This document shows positions 430 to 24,047 of a stretch of 41,659 nucleotides of DNA, piece after piece. The stretch's first letter is position 1; every line of letters begins with the position of its first letter. The stretch is taken from the UHGV virus genome UHGV-0225219. One strand, written 5' to 3'. The notes under the pieces were generated by a model. That model was not told the origin of the DNA. It was given only the letters and a program-made list of their open reading frames with translations, and searched no databases. This stretch comes from a virus. Both the position numbers and the translations under genes were made by a program.

Positions 430-1635
430 CTATGATATAGCGTCTGCCAGGATTACAATGGCATCGCTCTGCATTTTATCCGTGTTAAACACATAACGGT
501 CCATGGTGGTCTTGATGTCCTTGTGGCCCAGACGCTCCATGACGGTCTTGGGCTGGGCGCCATTCTCCGCCAACAACGTGCCATGAGTATGACGTAGGCA
601 ATGGCTGTGGAATAATGGGTTTCCCAATTCCTCATGGATAACCTTGGCGCAGTACTTGAATGAGTAAGGGGTAAGCAGCTCGCCGTTTTCTTTGGTGCTT
701 ATTGGCATTATTTCCTTACCAACAATTTTGACGTTGGCGGGAGCCTGAAAGATTAAGCCATCGTCCATTTGAAACGTCTTTGTAAAATACTGGCCGTACC
801 GGAGCATGTTCTTTTTGCGGTTACGGATTTCTGCTTTCAGTATTTTCTCGTACTCTGGTAGGATTTTTATAGTTCTGACAGAATCATATTTTGGTGACCG
901 GTAATACCACTTTCCACCCTCGTTGGCAAGCTGGTGCCGGATGGTTATGGTGTGGTGCTCGAAATCTACGTCATGCAGCAAGTCAATACCATAAGTCTCC
1001 CCCAGGCGGGTACCACAGTGGTATCCAGTCATGAGTGGCACATAGAAATTGCTATCCGGGCCAAAGCGCTCAATGATGGCTGCAAAGTCCTCTTTGACGC
1101 AGATATATTCTGTGTGTGCCTTGGCCTTCTCAGACATAACTATCTTCGGTATCCTGGCATAATCACAGGGATTATACTTGATGTATTTACAGGGATATAC
1201 CGCATACCCCAGGGCGCCGGACAGGCAGGATAATGTATTTTTAACCATGCTCCTGGAATAGCCTTGACGCTTCATTCCATCAATCCATTTTTGGATAACA
1301 TCTGTCTCCAATGATGCCAGCCGGTATTTTCCGAATGCCGGTTTGAGGTGGACACGGATTAAACGCTCATAGCCCACCTGGGTGTTATGCGCAAGGTTGG
1401 CCTTGACATAATTATCATACCAGTAATCCAGATAATCAGACATGCTGATGTCCGAGGGGGTAAACCTGCGGCCAGCAGAGTCATATTCAGCCTTGGCCTG
1501 GGTGCCGGCGGTAATGGCATCAGCTTTGGTGCGGTATCCTCCCTGACTGATTGGGTTGCGCTTACCATTGATTTTGGCTCCCTCAAAGGACCATTCCCAT
1601 GTAGAGCCACGTTTTCTTGTTCTTAACTGTCCCAT
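430..1635 (-). CDS. int: Tyrosine-type site-specific integrase
   Basis: 401-aa ORF. The C-terminal catalytic region carries R...HxLRH...Y (…FHSHCLRHTHGTLLAENG…GHKDIKTTMDRYVFN…). An N-terminal SAM-like/arm-binding region is present. AGGAGG RBS at 1645-1650. Confidence 0.9.
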   Translation of the reverse strand: MGQLRTRKRGSTWEWSFEGAKINGKRNPISQGGYRTKADAITAGTQAKAEYDSAGRRFTPSDISMSDYLDYWYDNYVKANLAHNTQVGYERLIRVHLKPAFGKYRLASLETDVIQKWIDGMKRQGYSRSMVKNTLSCLSGALGYAVYPCKYIKYNPCDYARIPKIVMSEKAKAHTEYICVKEDFAAIIERFGPDSNFYVPLMTGYHCGTRLGETYGIDLLHDVDFEHHTITIRHQLANEGGKWYYRSPKYDSVRTIKILPEYEKILKAEIRNRKKNMLRYGQYFTKTFQMDDGLIFQAPANVKIVGKEIMPISTKENGELLTPYSFKYCAKVIHEELGNPLFHSHCLRHTHGTLLAENGAQPKTVMERLGHKDIKTTMDRYVFNTDKMQSDAIVILADAIS

Positions 1636-1669: not shown

Positions 1670-1792
1670 TAGATTTTGGGTAAAATTAATACGCCCCTTG
1701 CCAGGACGCTCCAGGAATGATATAATTTACTTGCTTAGGGTAATTATATCTTCCAGGCGTACCTGGTAAGAGAAAATCTATGTGAAAAGCTT

Positions 1793-1822
1793 CTGTGTTC
1801 CCGCACAGGGGCTTTTTGCTTT
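1793..1822. terminator. Possible weak intrinsic terminator between gene X and int
   Basis: CTGTG-ttcccg-CACAG stem followed by GGGGCTTTTTGCTTT. Confidence 0.3.
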
Positions 1823-2725
1823 CTAAATTTCATAATTAAATATATTCTGATAATTATTGTTAATCAATTTATCCACACGGCGGACAATTAAACTTATTCC
1901 GACTAAGCGCAGTTGAATGGTACTATATCCAATAGTTATATCAGCCTTTCCTATGTTTCCATCACTCATAAAAAATATAGATCCATATGAGGAACGATTT
2001 AAAAATATTGGCTCTCCTTCAACTTCAGAAAAATGTAAAACCATAGGATATTTGTTTTTCTTACGTGTCGCCGTATAAGGCGTACATTCTACATAGGTAG
2101 CTGGAAGTGAATCCAATAAAATTGGTTTTATATAGTCAAAATATATATTTTCAGTGCATATATAAAAATCATTTCCATCTGGCAGGTAAGAATCGGCCTG
2201 TTGAAAAATATCATTAATGTAGTTAATTGCTGAAAGAGCAATATATTGATTGTTTTTATTAAGCGAAAACCATGCAATTCCATTTGTATGTTGTAAATTT
2301 AATATCCAACGTAACTCAAACGGTAAGTTTGGAAACTTTGCCATATCATCAACAGTAATATTATTGTTTATTTCAACCATTGTTTTTTGTCTTAATTCTT
2401 TTTTTTGACGGTTTTCTTTATAATGTCTTTCGCGCTCAATTTCATCTTCACCCTGCGTACCATATCCAGCTAATGTGATTTCATTTGATTTTCTTATGCA
2501 TGTACCAGCAAGTTCGTAATCCCCATTTGATTTATATATATGAATAGCGTTTTTTCTTAAGATATAGTCAATTCCATAATTTTTGCCAAATACATTTGCA
2601 GTTACGGACAAACACGGAATCTTTTCAACGTCCTCTTTTTTCATGATATCATATTCGACTCCGGCTATTTTAAAAGAAACGCTTTTGTATTTAAAAATAT
2701 CATCAAACGTAAGGTCTTTATCCAT
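1823..2725 (-). CDS. Hypothetical 300-aa protein, AT-rich, last gene of the repressor operon
   Basis: Long ORF at about 33% GC against about 50% for the phage. Its start lies 8 nt after the ImmA stop. No recognisable catalytic motif. Predicted two-domain layout with a charged linker (EIERERHYKENRQKKELRQK). Confidence 0.65.
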   Translation of the reverse strand: MDKDLTFDDIFKYKSVSFKIAGVEYDIMKKEDVEKIPCLSVTANVFGKNYGIDYILRKNAIHIYKSNGDYELAGTCIRKSNEITLAGYGTQGEDEIERERHYKENRQKKELRQKTMVEINNNITVDDMAKFPNLPFELRWILNLQHTNGIAWFSLNKNNQYIALSAINYINDIFQQADSYLPDGNDFYICTENIYFDYIKPILLDSLPATYVECTPYTATRKKNKYPMVLHFSEVEGEPIFLNRSSYGSIFFMSDGNIGKADITIGYSTIQLRLVGISLIVRRVDKLINNNYQNIFNYEI

Positions 2726-2732
2726 AAGCCAC

Positions 2733-3164
2733 CTATCTTAATCGTGATTCAACGGTATAATAGTCGCAACCGTATAATTCAGCTATATCATTACTGCTAT
2801 AGTTTGAATGCTCTGTAATAAAATCATTAGTTATAACCATGAATGCCGAAAAGAGGTTTGCTTCCCTTTCAACGCGTGAATTGAGATATGTATAATTTCT
2901 CAAAAAGTAACAATTCTGTTTACGGTGCATAATTGCGTGTCCTAACTCATGGGCCATAACAAAGAGTAACTCTGGACCCTCTATACAATTATTGATAAAA
3001 ATACATCGGTGGTTTTTTGCAAATAAATAGCACCCCGCATATTCCCCCAACGGGCCAAACTGAACTTCTATCTTTAATTGTCGAGCAATTTTAAAAGGGT
3101 CAGCTGTACCACAAAGCCTTATATAATAAGCAACAAGGCGCTTAATGCGTTCTTTATCCCCCAT
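2733..3164 (-). CDS. immA: ImmA/IrrE-family zinc metallopeptidase (anti-repressor protease)
   Basis: 143 aa with HExxH in …VMAHELGHAIMH…. It lies immediately downstream of the XRE repressor, as in ICEBs1 and phi105 ImmR/ImmA modules. Confidence 0.8.
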   Translation of the reverse strand: MGDKERIKRLVAYYIRLCGTADPFKIARQLKIEVQFGPLGEYAGCYLFAKNHRCIFINNCIEGPELLFVMAHELGHAIMHRKQNCYFLRNYTYLNSRVEREANLFSAFMVITNDFITEHSNYSSNDIAELYGCDYYTVESRLR

Positions 3165-3172
3165 ATGCTCAC

Positions 3173-3598
3173 CTACTTTTTGTTCTTGTAAGGGTTGTAT
3201 TTTTCTTTATTGATTTTCTTCAGATGGTGTAACATGATGTCCAACTGCTGGGCAAATAGCTCTTGTGTTTCTTCTGGTATTTCATCCCCCTCAAAACTTG
3301 CAGGCCCGGCCTCACCTTTTCTTAGCTTCTCCATAATATTACTTAAATCCTTTGCAATATCTCGTTCATCCTTTGGGGTGAGTGTAATCTCTTTCTTTTC
3401 CGGCTCTTCTTTTCCCGTCATCAGATAATCAACAGTTACACCAAAATAGTCGGCAATTTTTTGTAGTTTGTCTTGTTTCGGAGTACTTCTTCCGGTTTTC
3501 CAGTCTGTAAAAGTAGACCCCGCTATTCCTGTTGCTTTAGATACTTTATAAGCGGTTACTCCATATTTTTCTAATAATTTCACAAATATTTCGTACAT
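3173..3598 (-). CDS. XRE-family HTH repressor (CI-like/ImmR-like)
   Basis: 141 aa. N-terminal HTH (…GVTAYKVSKATGIAGSTFTDWKTGRSTPKQDKLQKIADYFGV…) and a C-terminal charged region. Divergent from the cro-like gene. Confidence 0.85.
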   Translation of the reverse strand: MYEIFVKLLEKYGVTAYKVSKATGIAGSTFTDWKTGRSTPKQDKLQKIADYFGVTVDYLMTGKEEPEKKEITLTPKDERDIAKDLSNIMEKLRKGEAGPASFEGDEIPEETQELFAQQLDIMLHHLKKINKEKYNPYKNKK

Positions 3599-3617
3599 AA
3601 AATACCTCCTAAAAATA

Positions 3618-3810
3618 TTTATGAAATCATAAATAAAACGCTTGACTAGTTATGAATCCCATGATATAGTATAGTCATGGTTATGAAATCATAGATAAAA
3701 GCGAACTATAAAATGATTTTCATAATTGTTTCGGAAATGCTAATGTTTAATGTGGTAATTAAACTATATCACATTTCCGAACTAAATTCAATATTTATTT
3801 ATGAAAATAT
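3618..3810. promoter_or_regulatory. Divergent early promoter/operator region with repeated TTATGA-N2/3-TCATAA operator palindromes
   Basis: Operator-like inverted repeats at 3618-3633 (TTTATGAAATCATAAA), 3681-3694 (TTATGAAATCATAG), 3713-3725 (ATGATTTTCATAA) and a half-site at 3798-3810. A TTGACT-17-TATAGT promoter-like element lies at 3642-3670. Confidence 0.6.
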
Positions 3811-3833
3811 TATGTTTATAGGAGGTGAAAAAA

Positions 3834-4037
3834 GTGTATAAAAAATTTGCTGAACTACTTTTTCAGCGTGGGTTAACGGCCTATAGGGTATCAAAAGATA
3901 CCGGGATACCCGCCAATACTTTTACTGACTGGAAAAATGGCCGTAGTAAACCAAAGTTTGACAAGTTGTTAATCCTGGCAAAGTATTTCGGCGTTCCGGT
4001 GGAGTACTTTGCAGATGAAAAGGAGGAGGACGCATGA
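3834..4037 (+). CDS. Cro-like XRE HTH protein
   Basis: GGAGGTG RBS at 3821-3827, then GTG at 3834. The track ORF start at 3825 overlaps the RBS. The HTH is a close paralogue of the repressor HTH (…GLTAYRVSKDTGIPANTFTDWKNGRSKPKFDKLLILAKYFGV…). Confidence 0.8.
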   Translation: MYKKFAELLFQRGLTAYRVSKDTGIPANTFTDWKNGRSKPKFDKLLILAKYFGVPVEYFADEKEEDA

Positions 4038-4858
4038 ACGATTTAAAAATTTTTAACAATGCCGAGTTCGGGCAGATACGGACTGTAGAGATTGAAGGAA
4101 AGATTTATTTTGTAGCAAGTGATGTGGCAAAATCCCTGGGGTATGAAAAACCTGCCAATGCTGTAGCGATGCATTGCCGGTATACCCTAAAACAGGGTAT
4201 ACCTCACCCACAGAACCCAGAGAAGCAGATAGAAGTCAATGTCATCCCCGAGGGAGACATGTACCGCCTAATCACCCATAGTAAACTGGAATCAGCAGAA
4301 CGCTTTGAATCATGGGTGTTTGATGAAGTCCTGCCATCCCTTCGCAAGACCGGTTCTTATGAGATGCCAAAGAAGGAGAAGCAGGACAAGACCAAACGCC
4401 TGCCGCTTTCCTCCGTCAATATGATGGTGAAGAATGTCATGAGCACTTTGGAGAAGGCAAAGGTAGAACCGGTATATGTGGCAGCGGAGGTAAAACGGCT
4501 GTACACAGATTTAGGGTATGAAGTCAAAGCACCGCTCCTTACAGATAAAGAGGACATGCCAAAGCTCTATGACTGTACAGAGATAGCCAAGGAACTTGGT
4601 ATCTACTCTGCCAGCGGGAAGCCCCACAATCAGGCCGTAAGTGCCATCATTAAAAAGCTGCATATTCCGAGCAGTGAGATTGTTACCACAGCGTTCAGCC
4701 GGAATGGGCATGAAGATGTGACAGTACAGTATAAGCCAACCGTATTGGAAGATGTGAGACTGTGGCTGATAGAAAATTTTTATCCCGCCAGAATCCCTTA
4801 CGTGGATTCTAAGGGCAATCAGAAAACATGTACTGTAGTATATCGCGAGGCAGTGTAA
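4034..4858 (+). CDS. ant: Phage antirepressor (Bro-N/AntA N-terminal domain plus KilAC C-terminal domain)
   Basis: 274 aa. The N-terminus (…KIFNNAEFGQIRTVEIEGKIYFVASDVAKSLGY…) is typical of Bro-N. The start overlaps the cro-like stop (ATGA). Confidence 0.8.
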   Translation: MNDLKIFNNAEFGQIRTVEIEGKIYFVASDVAKSLGYEKPANAVAMHCRYTLKQGIPHPQNPEKQIEVNVIPEGDMYRLITHSKLESAERFESWVFDEVLPSLRKTGSYEMPKKEKQDKTKRLPLSSVNMMVKNVMSTLEKAKVEPVYVAAEVKRLYTDLGYEVKAPLLTDKEDMPKLYDCTEIAKELGIYSASGKPHNQAVSAIIKKLHIPSSEIVTTAFSRNGHEDVTVQYKPTVLEDVRLWLIENFYPARIPYVDSKGNQKTCTVVYREAV

Positions 4859-16807: not shown

Positions 16808-17006
16808 GCAGTCCAAGGTCAGCCGCATCGACCGCAGCAAGGCCCTGGCCGCTCAGGCCGACGAGGCCATCAAGGAGCGCATCCGGACGGCGCCGGCCTA
16901 CATGTACACCAGCCTGTGCCCGGTTCCGGAGCTGCGGGAGCCGCCGAAGGGAGTGATATGGTACTATGAGACAATGTTACATAGACAACGGGCGTCACGG
17001 GTGTGA
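16788..17006 (+). CDS. Small protein encoded by a GC-rich patch with near-100% GC3
   Basis: 72 aa (MIKKGSKQSKVSRIDRSKALAAQADEAIKERIRTAPAYMYTSLCPVPELREPPKG…). Its codon usage is sharply different from the rest of the phage. Confidence 0.35.
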   Translation: MIKKGSKQSKVSRIDRSKALAAQADEAIKERIRTAPAYMYTSLCPVPELREPPKGVIWYYETMLHRQRASRV

Positions 17007-17080
17007 TGGTCAGCGCAACAACAAGGGCAGGATACGGTACGGGTGCTGGGCGTGTCCGCATCTGGATGCAGGAGGAGGTG

Positions 17081-17587
17081 ATGCCGGTGAAACAGACAGA
17101 AGCACTGGAAGAAGTGGCAAGGCTGGCCGCAAAGGAAGCGGTCAAAGAACATGAGAAACAGACACAGAGAAATAAGCGCACAAAGATTTTCCAGAATACT
17201 AAGAAGTTGATGGAGAATTATAACAGAATTTGTCAGAGTGTGGAAGAGGGCGTGGCGGAGCTTTCTGATATGGACAATAGGGAAGAACTGGAGGAGTTCA
17301 CGGAGGAGGATATTTTTATCAACAGCATTCTTAAGAGCAAGCTCCGGAGCGTTGTCATGATAGGTCACATAGACAAGTGCCTGAAGCTCCTGGAGGATGA
17401 GGAGTGTCGGAAAAATACGCATGAGAAGTATCTGGCCTTTAAGTATTTCTATCTGGATGGGATGACATACGAGAATATTGCAGAGATTTACGGATATGGA
17501 GAGCGGACGGCCAGACGGTGGATAACGGAGCTTACAGGGATACTTAGTGTATACCTCTTTGGTTCAGACGCCCTTATGCTGGATTAG
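17081..17587 (+). CDS. ArpU-family (sigma-70 region-4-like) late transcriptional regulator
   Basis: GGAGGAGGTG RBS then ATG 17081. C-terminal HTH (…YENIAEIYGYGERTARRWITELTGIL…). Located just upstream of the packaging module, as is usual for ArpU-like late activators. Confidence 0.65.
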   Translation: MPVKQTEALEEVARLAAKEAVKEHEKQTQRNKRTKIFQNTKKLMENYNRICQSVEEGVAELSDMDNREELEEFTEEDIFINSILKSKLRSVVMIGHIDKCLKLLEDEECRKNTHEKYLAFKYFYLDGMTYENIAEIYGYGERTARRWITELTGILSVYLFGSDALMLD

Positions 17588-17927
17588 GGCCTTGACAGGA
17601 GCATGTCAAAATCGTGTCCTTGCCATGTCCGTTTGGACGATTTATAATTGTAATATGCAAAATTGGATGAAGCGGAAAGCTGATTGGTTTTGCACCCTCC
17701 CCATTTAAGCAACGGCCGCCAGGTATCACAGCCTGGCGGCTGGCTAACCGGTATTGTGTAATCCCTCATAAGACAGACCTGTACTTTAACGGGACAATGC
17801 CGCAGGGTACACAACCGGTGAGGTATCTGGTTTTATCCCCCATGATGTTTTCCAGATACGATTAGGGCATCCTAGAGATAGGGTGTCCTTTTATTATGAG
17901 TAGCTTATACTCATTAAATATTCTAAT

Positions 17928-17956
17928 TTGACAGAATCGAACATTTGTTCTATACT
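17928..17956 (+). promoter_or_regulatory. Near-consensus sigma-70-type promoter (TTGACA-17 bp-TATACT) for the membrane-protein moron
   Basis: Read directly. There is an AT-rich UP-like tract upstream and the gene start lies about 60 nt downstream. Confidence 0.6.
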
Positions 17957-18015
17957 GTGGTTACGAAGAGAAGATGTGGATGTGTTTTTGTAAGATTTGT
18001 GGAATTGGGAGGGGG

Positions 18016-18654
18016 ATGATTATGGATAATTTAAATCTTGATAATATTGAACAATTACTTCAATCTGAACCTTCTGAAAAGTTACTTTTTAAAGCAATCA
18101 AAGCTCTTAAAGTTGAAAAGAAGAATAGGAAATCACGATGGATATTAGTAGTTATATGTTGTATCCTCGGTTCCATAGTCGGAATTCATAAAGAAACAGT
18201 CACTATTTTCAGAGAAAGTATAGATGCTATTTTAAATGTTTCACTAGCACTTTTCGGAGTGATTTTCACTGGATATTCCTTGCTACAAGCCTTTATGAAT
18301 AAACAGATGTTACTTCAACTTCTAAAAGACACAAAAGTATGTGACGGAGGAGAAAAGAGTAGATTACAAGATATCAATGAGAATTTTGTATATTTAATGC
18401 TATTGTATGTTATTGCGATAATTGTAACATTGATTATGAAAATAGTGATGTTTTGTTTGCCTGACAGTTTTACATTATTTTTAAACATGATAGTAAATAA
18501 TGTGATTGCAGTAAGTTTAATTGCGGTTTATTTTATTTTTATTGGAATAATACTGTGGAGGACAGTTAGTTTCGTTTCTACAATTTTTCAACTGTTCAAT
18601 ATATATGCTGTGACAAGAGTTCTTGAAATGATAGATGAGGAAGAAAAGCCATAA
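18016..18654 (+). CDS. AT-rich four-TM membrane protein (moron; candidate superinfection-exclusion/abortive-infection protein)
   Basis: About 30% GC. GGGAGGGGGA RBS, then ATG at 18016 (or 18022). Four hydrophobic helices: ILVVICCILGSIVGI, VSLALFGVIFTGYSLL, VYLMLLYVIAIIVTLIM and VIAVSLIAVYFIFIGIILW. Confidence 0.65.
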   Translation: MIMDNLNLDNIEQLLQSEPSEKLLFKAIKALKVEKKNRKSRWILVVICCILGSIVGIHKETVTIFRESIDAILNVSLALFGVIFTGYSLLQAFMNKQMLLQLLKDTKVCDGGEKSRLQDINENFVYLMLLYVIAIIVTLIMKIVMFCLPDSFTLFLNMIVNNVIAVSLIAVYFIFIGIILWRTVSFVSTIFQLFNIYAVTRVLEMIDEEEKP

Positions 18655-22245: not shown

Positions 22246-22417
22246 GAAGCAGGGGTACGCGGAACTGCGTTGCGATAAATGCAGCAGCGTGACCCAGCTC
22301 AAGGCGTTGACACGGCAATTCAAGGCGCAGGGATTCAATGTGTATGCAAATAAGGGAGTGTATTTGTCAGAAGGAGGCACGCCTGGAGCGGAAGGGGCGC
22401 TGATGAGTGCAACATAA
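22139..22417 (+). CDS. Hypothetical 92-aa protein overlapping the portal 3' end
   Basis: AAGGGAGGAAAG RBS then ATG. It overlaps the portal by about 107 nt in another frame, so whether it is a real gene is uncertain. Confidence 0.3.
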   Translation: MKVKVMNRLYQMSQKEYQGLLQVAKEQVPLGIYAIEKQGYAELRCDKCSSVTQLKALTRQFKAQGFNVYANKGVYLSEGGTPGAEGALMSAT

Positions 22418-24047
22418 TGAGTACGATATCGGCGCCGCCTTCAAAGCCATAGAGGATGAACTTATCAAGTCTATGATACGCAATATGGACCGACATCGGG
22501 CCGAGGAAACCAAAGAGGGTATTGAGTGGTCCATGTGGCAGGCAGAGCAGCTTAAGGCCCTGGAAAAGTATAAGAGGGATAACCGAAAACGGTATGGAAA
22601 GCAGTTTCAGAATCTCAACAAGGAAATAGGTGAGCTGATACGGATATCCAGGCAAAAAGGTAACATGCAGCAGGAAATCCAGATACTGAACGCCATTCGC
22701 AAAGGATTTCCAGCCAGGAAAATCAGCAAAGGTGCCACCGCCGAGTTTTTTAAACTGAATGAACGGAAGCTGGAAGCATTGATCGAGGCCACTACCCACG
22801 ACATGGAAGCGGCGGAGACGGCTGTCCTGCGTAAAGCTAATGATGATTATCGTAAGGCAATCTTCAATGCCCAGGTTTATGCCAATACCGGTGCAGGAAC
22901 CTACGAGAAGGCAGTGGACATGGCTACCAGGGACATGCTCTCACGGGGCCTTAACTGTGTAGAGTATGCCAATGGTGCCCGTCATACCCTGGCAGATTAT
23001 GCCGACATGGCCATCCGGACGGCATCCAAGCGGGCGTATCTGCAAGGAGAAGGAGAGAAGCGTCAAGAATGGGGGATTACTACCGTGATTGTCAGCAAGC
23101 GCGGGAACCCGTGTCCGAAGTGCCTGCCATTTGTCGGTAAGGTCCTGATTGACGACGTCTGGTCCGGCGGAAAGAAATCCGATGGTCCGTATCCCCTCAT
23201 GAGCAAGGCCGTTGCGGCCGGCCTGTATCATCCCAGATGCAAGGACAGCCACACAACGTACTTCCCCGGCATTTCCACGGCGGACGATATCTGGAGTGAA
23301 AAGGAACTGGAAGACATCGGCCAGGCCAATCAGCAGGAGGCTGAACGGAAGTATGCTTCAAGGCAGGTAGAGAAATATGGGCGGCTGGCGGAATATTCTT
23401 TGTCACCAGAAAATCAGAAGCAGTATAAACAGAAATCCGAGAAATGGGAGGGGGAGGCAGGGGAGAGATACACGGTTTCAGATGAGATAAAGGTGTATCG
23501 GGATGATACACCTGAGAAAATGATAGATTTAGTCGATAAATACACGGAGGATGAATTTGTTGTGCTTAAGGAGACGGCTGAACATGCGTATGCGTATGAC
23601 CCGGATACAGACACAATTGTAGTTAACCCAGCCCATCCGTTGTATGAATATTATGACTATAGAGAGGTCATGATACATGAATTGGCGCACCGGATTGACC
23701 ACAACGAGTTTGGAAGCCCAATGAATGTACAGTTTACGGATGCTATTTTAGAATCAGAGAAAAGGTTGCTGAAAGATGCGGATAGATATAATAAATTATT
23801 TGCTCCTGGAGGAGAACTGGAGTATAATAACCTCATCAGCGATATACTGGGGTGCCTGACAGATAATGTGATAGTGGGCGATGCCTATCATGAATCACAA
23901 TATATTGGTATCCCAGGGTATTCAGAGTTGGAAGTGTTTGCAAACGTGTTCACTGCCCTTTACCAAGGGGATGATGTAACGGTTAAATTCCTCAAAGAGG
24001 AGTTGGGTGAATTATATCTTGCATTTTTGAAAGTTGTAGGTGAATAA
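22407..24047 (+). CDS. Head morphogenesis protein (MuF / SPP1 gp7 family) with C-terminal HExxH extension domain
   Basis: The N-terminal two-thirds has MuF-like motifs (…NCVEYANGARHTLADYADMAIRTASKRAYLQGE…). The last roughly 200 aa are AT-richer and contain …EVMIHELAHRIDHNEFGSP…. GTG start. Confidence 0.75.
   Translation: MQHNEYDIGAAFKAIEDELIKSMIRNMDRHRAEETKEGIEWSMWQAEQLKALEKYKRDNRKRYGKQFQNLNKEIGELIRISRQKGNMQQEIQILNAIRKGFPARKISKGATAEFFKLNERKLEALIEATTHDMEAAETAVLRKANDDYRKAIFNAQVYANTGAGTYEKAVDMATRDMLSRGLNCVEYANGARHTLADYADMAIRTASKRAYLQGEGEKRQEWGITTVIVSKRGNPCPKCLPFVGKVLIDDVWSGGKKSDGPYPLMSKAVAAGLYHPRCKDSHTTYFPGISTADDIWSEKELEDIGQANQQEAERKYASRQVEKYGRLAEYSLSPENQKQYKQKSEKWEGEAGERYTVSDEIKVYRDDTPEKMIDLVDKYTEDEFVVLKETAEHAYAYDPDTDTIVVNPAHPLYEYYDYREVMIHELAHRIDHNEFGSPMNVQFTDAILESEKRLLKDADRYNKLFAPGGELEYNNLISDILGCLTDNVIVGDAYHESQYIGIPGYSELEVFANVFTALYQGDDVTVKFLKEELGELYLAFLKVVGE

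What the first reader, a model, noticed from the sequence alone, without database searches (positions are those of the whole stretch)
1823..3598. AT-rich unknown 300-aa gene embedded in the lysogeny operon (repressor - ImmA - X), next to int
The XRE repressor, ImmA protease and gene X are separated by only 8 nt each on the minus strand. X should therefore be expressed in the lysogen. It is about 33% GC against about 50% for the phage. It has no recognisable domain. It occupies the int/cI-proximal accessory hotspot where prophages usually carry superinfection-exclusion, abortive-infection or other defence genes. A weak terminator separates it from int. This is the best candidate in the window for an undescribed lysogen-expressed defence or exclusion function.
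Basis: partly seen in the sequence, partly recalled or inferred. Interest (0 to 1): 0.75.

Follow-up and report, generated by a model that had tools for sequence, protein, structure and literature searches.

The report
Unknown AT-rich cargo gene in prophage immunity operon
A real, conserved 300-residue protein of unknown fold rides as foreign, AT-rich cargo in the repressor operon of a gut Clostridia prophage, in the slot where related phages carry genes that block other phages; it is a good but unproven candidate for such a function.

Summary
On the minus strand, xre (3173-3598), immA (2733-3164) and X (1823-2725) are 8 and 7 nt apart. Each downstream start has an AGGTG ribosome-binding site over the upstream stop. 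X is the most AT-rich stretch of the window (30.6% GC against 47%). A weak hairpin-U4 and a second hairpin lie between X and int.

X is a real gene (dN/dS 0.11). It has two constrained domains joined by a relaxed charged helix. Neither domain matches Pfam, PHROGs, PADLOC, PDB sequences or PDB folds.

An exhaustive profile search finds about 270 uncharacterised cluster representatives. In 44 non-redundant loci the gene sits after the prophage repressor (26/36) and before an integrase (25/34, tyrosine or serine type). It is on average 10 GC points below its surroundings.

X moves as a cassette, and its C-domain alone is swapped in a sister prophage. Its domains recombine with TM hairpins, Mrr nuclease, FtsK-gamma, SAP and TerB_N modules. 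Neighbours in the slot include the exclusion lipoprotein Ltp.

The position equals that of ltp in phage TP-J34 and is analogous to that of bstA. A lysogen-expressed exclusion or defence role is the best reading (about 0.5) but is not shown. The mechanism is unknown.

The parts
3763..3791 (-). Promoter-like site (TTGAAT-17-TATAGT with TG extension) that would drive the xre-immA-X transcript
   Evidence: Consensus scan. It faces a plus-strand TTGACT-17-TATAGT site at 3642-3670 for cro. Consensus match only, not shown to be active.
3619..3700 (.). Likely operator repeats (20-nt TTATGAAATCATAnATAAAA, two copies, plus related half-sites) in the xre/cro intergenic region
   Evidence: the repeat finder
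3173..3598 (-). XRE/CI-type repressor, first gene of the operon
   Evidence: HTH_19, HTH_3 and Phage_CI_repr in Pfam; phrog_8 and phrog_4 repressor families
2733..3164 (-). ImmA/IrrE-type M78 metallopeptidase, 8 nt after xre
   Evidence: PF06114 E 1.3e-16; phrog_87; capP-like in PADLOC
2450..2725 (-). X N-terminal domain (aa 1-92): two beta-hairpins plus a TPR-like helical hairpin. It is an exchangeable module also found in front of Mrr_cat+FtsK_gamma, SAP-containing and other C-termini
2363..2449 (-). X charged linker helix (aa 93-121)
   Evidence: AF2 helix 93-121; dN/dS 0.80 and highest variability among close homologs
1826..2362 (-). X C-terminal domain (aa 122-300): a helical sub-domain plus a 7-strand antiparallel beta-meander with family motifs C-x-PYT-x-TGK-x-SKYP and DG-x-IGKA. 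It is the core of a family of about 270 cluster representatives
1784..1813 (-). Weak intrinsic-terminator-like hairpin (AGC-CC-CUGUG / CACAG-AA-GCU) followed by UUUU, 10 nt after the X stop codon
   Evidence: RNA fold; sequence read
1691..1709 (-). Second GC-rich hairpin with an A/T-rich tail; the end of the mobile X cassette (shared breakpoint at about 1681-1688) lies just beyond it
   Evidence: Terminator scan; breakpoints with L001 (1681) and L014 (1688)
430..1635 (-). Tyrosine integrase downstream of X
   Evidence: Phage_integrase and Phage_int_SAM_3; 91% DNA identity to the L008 integrase
3825..4858 (+). Divergent early genes: cro-like HTH (3825-4037) and Bro-N anti-repressor-like protein (4034-4858)
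   Evidence: Pfam

Best explanation
X is a horizontally mobile, AT-rich accessory ('moron') gene. It is inserted at the 3' end of the prophage immunity operon, so it should be made together with the repressor and ImmA whenever the prophage is quiescent.

X encodes a soluble, acidic, two-domain protein from a large uncharacterised family. That family is almost confined to the repressor-to-integrase slot of prophages of gut Clostridia.

The most likely role is protection of the lysogen against other phages, by superinfection exclusion or defence. The likely mode of action is protein binding rather than catalysis. In this reading the C-terminal beta-meander domain is the functional core and the target-binding part. 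In many relatives that domain is tethered to the cytoplasmic face of the membrane by a TM hairpin. The N-terminal domain would be an interchangeable adaptor for localisation or oligomerisation, which other cargo genes use to carry an Mrr nuclease plus an FtsK-gamma DNA-binding domain.

Shown here: operon anatomy, foreign composition, purifying selection, domain structure, cassette mobility, slot conservation and domain-shuffling partners. Inferred: co-transcription in the lysogen, the anti-phage role, action by binding, and action at or near incoming DNA at the membrane.
For: Anatomy: 8-nt and 7-nt gaps with SD sequences over the upstream stop codons, and no internal terminator.

Foreign composition: 30.6% GC against 47%. 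The same holds in 40 of 44 loci, with a mean of -10 GC points.

Real gene: dN/dS 0.11, with both domains constrained and the linker relaxed. There are 270 cluster representatives at E<=1e-3.

Mobility: L001 shares only X plus about 140 nt (window 2725-1681). L014 shares cro-xre-immA-X (1688-4049, 98.9%) but has a serine recombinase. L008 keeps xre, immA, the N-domain and int but has a different C-terminus.

Slot conservation: a repressor lies within 3 genes upstream on the same strand in 26/36 loci. An integrase lies within 4 genes downstream in 25/34 (11 Tyr, 14 Ser). The isolated Blautia phage Montmirail shows the same arrangement.

The slot holds exclusion and defence cargo: Ltp lipoprotein (E 1.5e-74) and a T5orf172/MUG113 protein sit next to X-family genes.

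Domain partners: about 30 of 170 members have N-terminal TM helices. Specific architectures are 2TM+C+FtsK_gamma (P0037), N+Mrr_cat+FtsK_gamma (P0119), 2TM+N+Mrr_cat+FtsK_gamma (P0136), TerB_N+C (P0127) and N+SAP (P0020). All of them lie in lysogeny operons.

[quoted passage not shown] BstA lies downstream of the repressor, presumably shares its promoter, and has its own terminator (PMC8585504).

Binding rather than catalysis: the positions conserved across the family are mostly Pro, Gly, Thr and hydrophobic residues, and the C-domain has pI 5.1.
Against: No defence or exclusion HMM matches X or its C-domain family. The only PADLOC hit, SngA, comes from a fused TerB_N domain in one relative. 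No fold neighbour points to a mechanism. X itself has no TM segment, signal peptide or DNA-binding domain, unlike most described exclusion proteins. Expression in the lysogen is inferred, not measured. Position in a hotspot is only a prior, because such slots also carry genes unrelated to phage defence. The fusion partners may reflect what fits in the slot rather than a shared pathway.
Confidence: 0.5

Rival explanations
1. X is part of the lysis-lysogeny switch itself, for example a sensor or modulator that controls ImmA cleavage of the repressor or otherwise tunes induction.
For: Tight translational-coupling-type junction with immA. The cro-xre-immA-X block moves as one 2.36-kb unit at 98.9% identity between two otherwise different prophages. 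M78 is the immediate or next upstream gene in 19/36 loci.
Against: X-family genes also follow LexA-like HTH+S24 repressors with no ImmA (L016, L026). L001 combines an 83%-identical X with xre and immA genes that share no DNA similarity with the window's. L008 keeps a related xre and immA (window 4028-2462 shared at 76.5% DNA identity; immA dN 0.04) but replaces the whole C-domain. Other cargo occupies the same position. ImmA/ImmR and CapP/CapH modules are described as two-protein systems (10.1101/2022.04.27.489752, PMC13228613; abstracts seen).
Confidence: 0.1
2. X is a lysogenic-conversion factor that changes host physiology (envelope, stress tolerance, sporulation or gut fitness) and has nothing to do with other phages.
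For: The hallmarks are the same as for any moron: AT-rich, lysogeny-operon expression and mobility. There is no defence homology. The family is concentrated in gut-metagenome Clostridia. Some family members are membrane-anchored.
Against: Fusion partners are DNA-directed (Mrr_cat, FtsK_gamma, SAP) or defence-associated (TerB_N) rather than metabolic or envelope enzymes. Co-resident cargo includes Ltp and T5orf172. The family was found almost only in prophage lysogeny modules.
Confidence: 0.2
3. X is a toxic effector held in check by the XRE/ImmA pair. It would be either an addiction module that stabilises the prophage or a CapH/CapP-style effector induced by damage or infection, so that its level rises when ImmA cleaves the repressor.
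For: immA matches capP (E 3e-13) and xre matches capH (E 4e-5) in PADLOC. CapP+CapH regulate many immune operons in response to DNA damage (PMC13228613, abstract). Some N-domain relatives carry an Mrr nuclease, a potentially toxic effector.
Against: X is co-directional with and downstream of xre, not under a divergent repressed promoter, so it should be expressed with the repressor rather than only after its cleavage. No catalytic or pore-forming feature is evident in X. No small antitoxin-like partner is conserved.
Confidence: 0.1
4. X is an accessory factor for integration or excision (a directionality or host-factor-like protein) working with the adjacent integrase.
For: It lies immediately upstream of int on the same strand in most loci.
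Against: The same family pairs with both tyrosine and serine recombinases (11 and 14 loci). An identical X sits next to a Tyr integrase in the window and a Ser recombinase in L014. The protein is acidic with no DNA-binding domain. Terminator-like hairpins separate X from int.
Confidence: 0.03

Closest known systems
Ltp superinfection-exclusion lipoprotein of S. thermophilus phage TP-J34 (Pfam PF07553)
   Same: [quoted passage not shown] Ltp homologues sit right next to X-family genes in L027 and L029.
   Different: Ltp is a secreted, lipid-anchored protein that blocks DNA injection from outside the membrane. X has no signal peptide, lipobox or TM segment and no Ltp repeat. There is no sequence or fold similarity.
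BstA prophage defence protein (Salmonella BTP1 and other Gram-negative prophages)
   Same: A single protein of similar size (about 300 aa, from my recollection) encoded downstream of the prophage repressor. It presumably shares the repressor's promoter, has its own terminator, and is highly expressed in lysogeny (PMC8585504).
   Different: BstA acts at phage DNA replication sites by abortive infection and has an aba self-immunity element (PMC8585504). From my recollection, BstA carries a KilA-N domain. X has no KilA-N or any other known domain, comes from Gram-positive gut Clostridia, and has no known self-immunity element.
ICEBs1-type ImmR/ImmA module and CapH/CapP regulators
   Same: The two genes upstream of X are this module: an XRE repressor plus an M78 peptidase. 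In ICEBs1 the operon is immR-immA-int (established knowledge; noted for Clostridium prophages in PMC11318856). X is an insertion between immA and int.
   Different: These are regulators, and X is not homologous to either. X-family genes also occur after LexA-like repressors without ImmA.
Lactococcal Sie2009-type and Sfi21 orf203-type exclusion proteins (recalled from the literature, not checked here)
   Same: Small prophage genes between repressor and integrase that block heterologous phages in the lysogen.
   Different: As I recall, they are membrane-associated proteins of about 160-200 aa. X is soluble with two domains. No homology was detected through PHROGs.
Shango SngA (TerB_N domain protein)
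   Same: One relative (P0127) fuses a TerB_N domain that matches SngA (E 9.7e-12) to the X-type beta-core.
   Different: X has no TerB_N domain. P0127 lies in a lysogeny operon (HTH-M78-Big_2-P0127) and no Shango partner genes were annotated in the 6.4-kb contig, so it is not a Shango system.

Membership tests
Moron (phage accessory cassette in the Hendrix/Juhala sense) | Nucleotide composition distinct from the flanking phage genome | tested here: met
   30.6% against 47.0% GC, the lowest stretch in the window; 40/44 family loci are at least 5 points lower
Moron (phage accessory cassette in the Hendrix/Juhala sense) | Present, absent or replaced between otherwise related phages, with discrete breakpoints | tested here: met
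   L008 has a C-domain swap with breakpoints at about 2462 and 1832. L001 and L014 share a cassette end at 1681-1688
Moron (phage accessory cassette in the Hendrix/Juhala sense) | Own promoter and own terminator (autonomous transcription unit) | tested here: inconclusive
   Terminator-like hairpins lie after X. No promoter-like site lies directly upstream, and X appears to use the repressor promoter, as BstA and Ltp do
Ltp-type exclusion lipoprotein (PF07553) | Signal peptide with lipobox, and Ltp repeat domains | tested here: not met
   No Pfam hit at E<=1; no hydrophobic N-terminal segment
Ltp-type exclusion lipoprotein (PF07553) | Location between integrase and metalloprotease/repressor in the lysogeny module | tested here: met
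BstA | BstA homology, including the N-terminal KilA-N domain (as I recall it) | tested here: not met
   No Pfam or PADLOC match
BstA | Encoded directly downstream of the prophage repressor on the same transcript, with its own terminator | tested here: met
   By sequence anatomy only. Transcription was not measured
Any catalogued anti-phage defence system (PADLOC-DB v2.0.0) | HMM match to a component protein | tested here: not met
   X gives 0 families. Of 91 family members, only one matches (SngA, through a fused TerB_N domain)
Abortive-infection or toxin-type effector | Toxicity or growth arrest on expression or on infection | not testable with these tools
   No catalytic motif or TM segment in X. 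This needs an expression experiment

The most novel reading that the evidence does not exclude
The X family, together with the cargo genes that share its N-terminal domain, would form a previously unrecognised combinatorial family of prophage-encoded exclusion or defence proteins of gut Clostridia. The family would be built from two domains with no detected structural relative in the PDB or BFVD libraries. One is an adaptor domain that also delivers Mrr nuclease/FtsK-gamma or SAP modules. The other is a beta-meander core that is often tethered to the inner face of the membrane. These proteins would act on incoming phage DNA or its entry machinery from the cytoplasmic side. That differs from the classical outside-the-membrane exclusion proteins such as Ltp.
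Probability: 0.3. Interest if true: 0.65.

Novelty: new member of a known kind. Interest (0 to 1): 0.45.

Why it matters
Prophage-borne exclusion and defence genes shape which phages can spread in a community. Almost nothing is known about them in the dominant gut Clostridia (Lachnospiraceae and Oscillospiraceae).

This work turns a single unknown ORF into a defined family of about 270 clusters at 50% identity. The family has a fixed genomic address, two modelled domains without detected relatives among solved or viral predicted structures, clear cassette boundaries, and informative fusion partners.

It also points to tractable material. H. hathewayi DSM 13479 carries an identical X, and the isolated Blautia phage Montmirail carries a distant homolog.

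If the anti-phage role is confirmed, it would add a new protein family to the defence catalogue. It would also give a marker, a gene following repressor/ImmA with a GC drop of about 10 points, for mining further cargo. If the role is not confirmed, X remains an ordinary moron of unknown function.

Tried and rejected
1. Direct homology gave nothing for X: Pfam, PHROGs and PADLOC, PDB sequence profiles for the whole protein and for each domain, and megablast or tblastn against phage and plasmid records. The only hit there was one hypothetical protein in Blautia phage Montmirail.

3. 'X is a virion-protein decoy' is rejected. The lead was phrog_4611 'minor head protein' hits among family members. 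Those hits lie in an extra C-terminal extension of a 445-492-aa subfamily and in the unrelated C-terminus of P0018, not in X's domains. BLASTP of X and of P0018 against the window's own minor head protein found nothing.

5. 'P0127 shows that the C-domain belongs to Shango' is rejected: P0127 sits in a lysogeny operon and no Shango partner genes were annotated in the 6.4-kb contig.

6. 'The window is the H. hathewayi DSM 13479 prophage' is rejected: only 1688-4049 is shared.

7. The att-site search found no direct repeat of at least 12 nt between the first 450 nt and the last 5.6 kb of the window.

9. The 2025 Listeria terminase-targeting defence preprint was checked for a lysogeny-module location. 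The terms 'repressor' and 'lysogeny module' do not occur in it.
Full report
1. WHAT IS THERE

The left end of the window is a classical Gram-positive lysogeny module. On the minus strand lie an XRE/CI-type repressor (3173-3598, 141 aa), an ImmA/IrrE M78 metallopeptidase (2733-3164, 143 aa), gene X (1823-2725, 300 aa) and a tyrosine integrase (430-1635). On the plus strand, divergent from these, lie a cro-like HTH gene (3825-4037) and a Bro-N protein (4034-4858).

The rest of the window is a complete-looking siphovirus: terminase, portal, gp7-like minor head protein, major head protein, tape measure protein, tail proteins and endolysin.

The gaps are 8 nt (xre-immA) and 7 nt (immA-X). Both junctions have the form TAG-GTG...ATG, so an AGGTG Shine-Dalgarno sequence overlaps the preceding stop codon. 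No terminator-like site on the minus strand interrupts 1823-3598. A promoter-like site with a TG extension (3791-3763) precedes xre. It faces a similar plus-strand site for cro, and 20-nt operator-like repeats lie between them.

Ten nucleotides after the X stop codon there is a weak hairpin followed by UUUU (about 1813-1784). A second GC-rich hairpin lies at 1709-1691. The 187-nt spacer before int folds better than its shuffles (z -3.65).

X has 30.6% GC and 23.6% GC3, against 47.0% for the window, and is the lowest 903-nt stretch of the 41.6 kb. immA (36.8%) and xre (37.6%) are intermediate.

2. X IS A REAL, CONSTRAINED, TWO-DOMAIN PROTEIN WITH NO KNOWN RELATIVES

Purifying selection is clear. 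Against the 83%-identical copy in L001, dN/dS is 0.11 overall, 0.07 for residues 1-95, 0.80 for the charged linker (96-120) and 0.10 for residues 121-300.

AlphaFold2 with an 18-sequence alignment gives mean pLDDT 82.6.
- The N-domain has two beta-hairpins and a helical hairpin (residues 7-88). Modelled alone, it reaches pLDDT 85.6.
- A long helix spans residues 93-121.
- The C-domain has a helix (157-179) packed on a seven-strand antiparallel beta-meander (211-297, pLDDT above 90).

Nothing known matches.
- Pfam, PHROGs and PADLOC give no hit for X.
- PDB sequence profiles for the whole protein and for each domain give nothing.
- BFVD gives three uncharacterised gut Siphoviridae proteins.

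Residues conserved across 91 diverse C-domains are mostly Pro, Gly, Thr and hydrophobic (P216, T218, P227, G248, G256), plus K225, N159 and D127. The motifs are C-x-PYT-x-TGK-x-SKYP and DG-x-IGKA. The domain is acidic, with pI 5.1. This pattern fits a binding scaffold better than an enzyme or a DNA-binding domain.

3. THE FAMILY AND ITS ADDRESS

A word-indexed search found only 24 relatives, all unnamed. An exhaustive HMM search found 270 representatives of 50%-identity clusters at E<=1e-3. Most are stand-alone C-domains of about 190-240 aa.

I gathered loci in several ways: exact look-up, pattern scans of genomes, viral contigs and metagenomes, and one deposited phage. I then called ORFs and tagged the neighbours.

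Among 44 non-redundant loci:
- An XRE-type repressor lies on the same strand within three genes upstream in 26 of 36 evaluable cases.
- An M78 peptidase lies within two genes upstream in 19 of 36.
- An integrase lies within four genes downstream in 25 of 34 (11 tyrosine, 14 serine).
- The X-family gene is on average 10 GC points below its locus, and at least 5 points below in 40 of 44.

In L016 and L026 the repressor is a LexA-like HTH+S24 protein and there is no ImmA. The isolated Blautia phage Montmirail has a distant homolog in the same place, immediately upstream of the integrase and a few genes downstream of the repressor on the same strand.

4. MOBILITY AT GENE LEVEL AND AT DOMAIN LEVEL

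- L001 lies on a 285-kb contig beside cotJA and cotJB. It shares with the window only X plus about 140 nt downstream (2725-1681, 83%), inside otherwise unrelated immunity and recombinase genes.
- L014, a prophage of Hungatella hathewayi DSM 13479, shares cro-xre-immA-X (1688-4049) at 98.9%, with X identical. It has a serine recombinase and different early genes. The window is therefore a different prophage.
- L008 shares xre, immA and the first 88 codons of X (4028-2462), and then the stop codon through int (1832-304, 91%). The linker and C-domain are replaced by an unrelated 320-residue C-terminus, P0018.
- L011 carries a third cargo, N-domain plus a SAP-containing region (P0020).

All of these cargo genes are 31-36% GC in loci of 44-49% GC.

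5. DOMAIN PARTNERS AND NEIGHBOURS

About 30 of the 170 retrieved proteins have one or two N-terminal TM helices in front of the C-domain or the N-domain. In some C-domain-only loci a separate 76-80-aa protein precedes the gene; in L005 it carries a TM2 domain.

Specific architectures:
- P0037: 2TM + C-domain + FtsK_gamma
- P0119: N-domain + Mrr_cat + FtsK_gamma
- P0136: 2TM + N-domain + Mrr_cat + FtsK_gamma
- P0127: TerB_N + the beta-core of the C-domain
- P0020 to P0023: N-domain + SAP

The FtsK_gamma and Mrr fusions imply that the anchored forms face the cytoplasm. Where enough flanking sequence is available these variants sit in lysogeny operons. P0119 directly follows an HTH gene on a 1.8-kb contig, and the 2-kb P0136 contig is too short to judge.

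Genes next to X-family genes include an Ltp lipoprotein with three repeats (E 1.5e-74), a TM/coiled-coil/T5orf172-MUG113 protein, a bPH_3+SHOCT protein, and small zinc-ribbon/TM proteins.

6. INTERPRETATION

The anatomy makes it very likely (about 0.85) that X is accessory cargo expressed with the repressor, rather than a core part of the switch. Three findings support this:
- X is exchanged independently of xre and immA (L001).
- Its C-domain is swapped while xre, immA and int stay (L008).
- The family also follows repressors that lack ImmA.

[quoted passage not shown] It is analogous to that of bstA, which lies downstream of cI, presumably shares its promoter, has its own terminator and is highly expressed in lysogeny (PMC8585504).

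I take these precedents together with the Ltp and T5orf172 neighbours and the nuclease, DNA-binding, TerB_N and membrane-anchor fusion partners. On that basis a lysogen-protecting anti-phage role is the best explanation, at about 0.5.

The mechanism I consider most likely, with low confidence (about 0.2), is stoichiometric binding by the beta-meander domain to a component of the incoming phage or of its entry or early machinery on the cytoplasmic side. The N-domain would serve as an exchangeable localisation or oligomerisation adaptor. Nothing here shows this directly.

7. RIVALS

- A role in the switch (0.1) is disfavoured by the independence from ImmA described above.
- A host-physiology conversion factor (0.2) cannot be excluded, because position is only a prior.
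- A toxin, or a CapH/CapP-style induced effector (0.1), is suggested by the capP- and capH-like scores of immA and xre (PMC13228613). It fits poorly with the co-directional operon and with the absence of catalytic or pore-forming features.
- An integration accessory factor (0.03) is contradicted by the pairing with both recombinase families and by an identical X next to different integrases.
- 'Not a gene' is excluded by dN/dS and by the size of the family.

8. NOVELTY AND SCORE

An unknown AT-rich gene in this slot is what a phage biologist expects, so the surprise is modest, and the kind of element (lysogeny-module cargo) is known. What is new is the protein family itself:
- It has no detected structural relatives for either domain.
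- It is sizeable and associated with the gut.
- It has a fixed genomic address and clear cassette boundaries.
- It belongs to a domain-shuffling network.
- It can be tested in a type strain and an isolated phage.

I rate it 'new member of a known kind', with interest 0.45. The most novel reading not excluded is a new combinatorial family of cytoplasm-side exclusion or defence proteins. I give it probability about 0.3, and it would deserve interest of about 0.65 if true.

Noticed in passing
window 17974-18654 (+), with about 390 nt of non-coding sequence upstream (17588-17973): A second AT-rich island (about 32% GC) holds a 226-aa ORF with several hydrophobic, TM-like segments. It lies between a late-regulator-like gene (17003-17587, phrog_1558) and the terminase region. 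It has no PHROG match and looks like a second moron encoding a membrane protein.
   Followed up: partly
window 3599-3824: The immunity switch region has face-to-face promoter-like sites. The minus-strand site is at 3791-3763 and the plus-strand site at 3642-3670, so the transcripts would overlap by about 80 nt. There are also 20-nt direct repeats (3619, 3681) and related half-sites that are probably operators.
   Followed up: partly
window 1688-4049 against L014 (H. hathewayi DSM 13479, NZ_CP102274.1, about 2.09-2.11 Mb): The whole cro-xre-immA-X block is 98.9% identical between two otherwise different prophages, one with a tyrosine integrase and one with a serine recombinase. This implies recent exchange of an 'immunity plus cargo' cassette, and probably shared immunity specificity.
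   Followed up: yes
L008 7001-8230 (P0018) and L011 7001-8290 (P0020): Alternative cargo genes keep X's N-terminal domain (79% and 66% identity) but carry other C-termini. P0018 has a second N-domain copy plus an unknown region with a weak phrog_4611 / PF06152 'minor capsid' match. P0020 has a SAP domain plus a phrog_10777 region.
   Followed up: partly
L027 1604-2350, L029 9243-9977, L037 9948-11546: In sister loci the gene between the X-family gene and the recombinase is an Ltp-type exclusion lipoprotein with three repeats (Pfam E 1.5e-74), or a TM/coiled-coil/T5orf172-MUG113 protein. This shows stacking of cargo in the slot.
   Followed up: yes
L028, L049, L055, L059 (X-family hits of 81-111 aa): Several loci contain only short C-domain fragments, next to 101-148-aa ORFs on the same strand. 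This suggests frameshifted or decaying copies of the 334-aa variant in some prophages.
   Followed up: no
P0085, P0099, P0115, P0138 (445-492 aa) and P0018: A subfamily with the C-domain in mid-protein has a 40-60-residue C-terminal stretch matching positions about 293-350 of phrog_4611 ('minor head protein'). P0018's C-terminus matches 229-346. The window's own minor head protein (22407-24047) matches positions 50-308 of the same PHROG, yet shows no pairwise similarity to P0018. The meaning is unexplained.
   Followed up: partly
L020 5968-6144 and L030 5953-6165: Small (58-70 aa) double zinc-ribbon proteins with a central hydrophobic, Gly/Cys-rich segment follow the X-family gene in two unrelated loci.
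   Followed up: no
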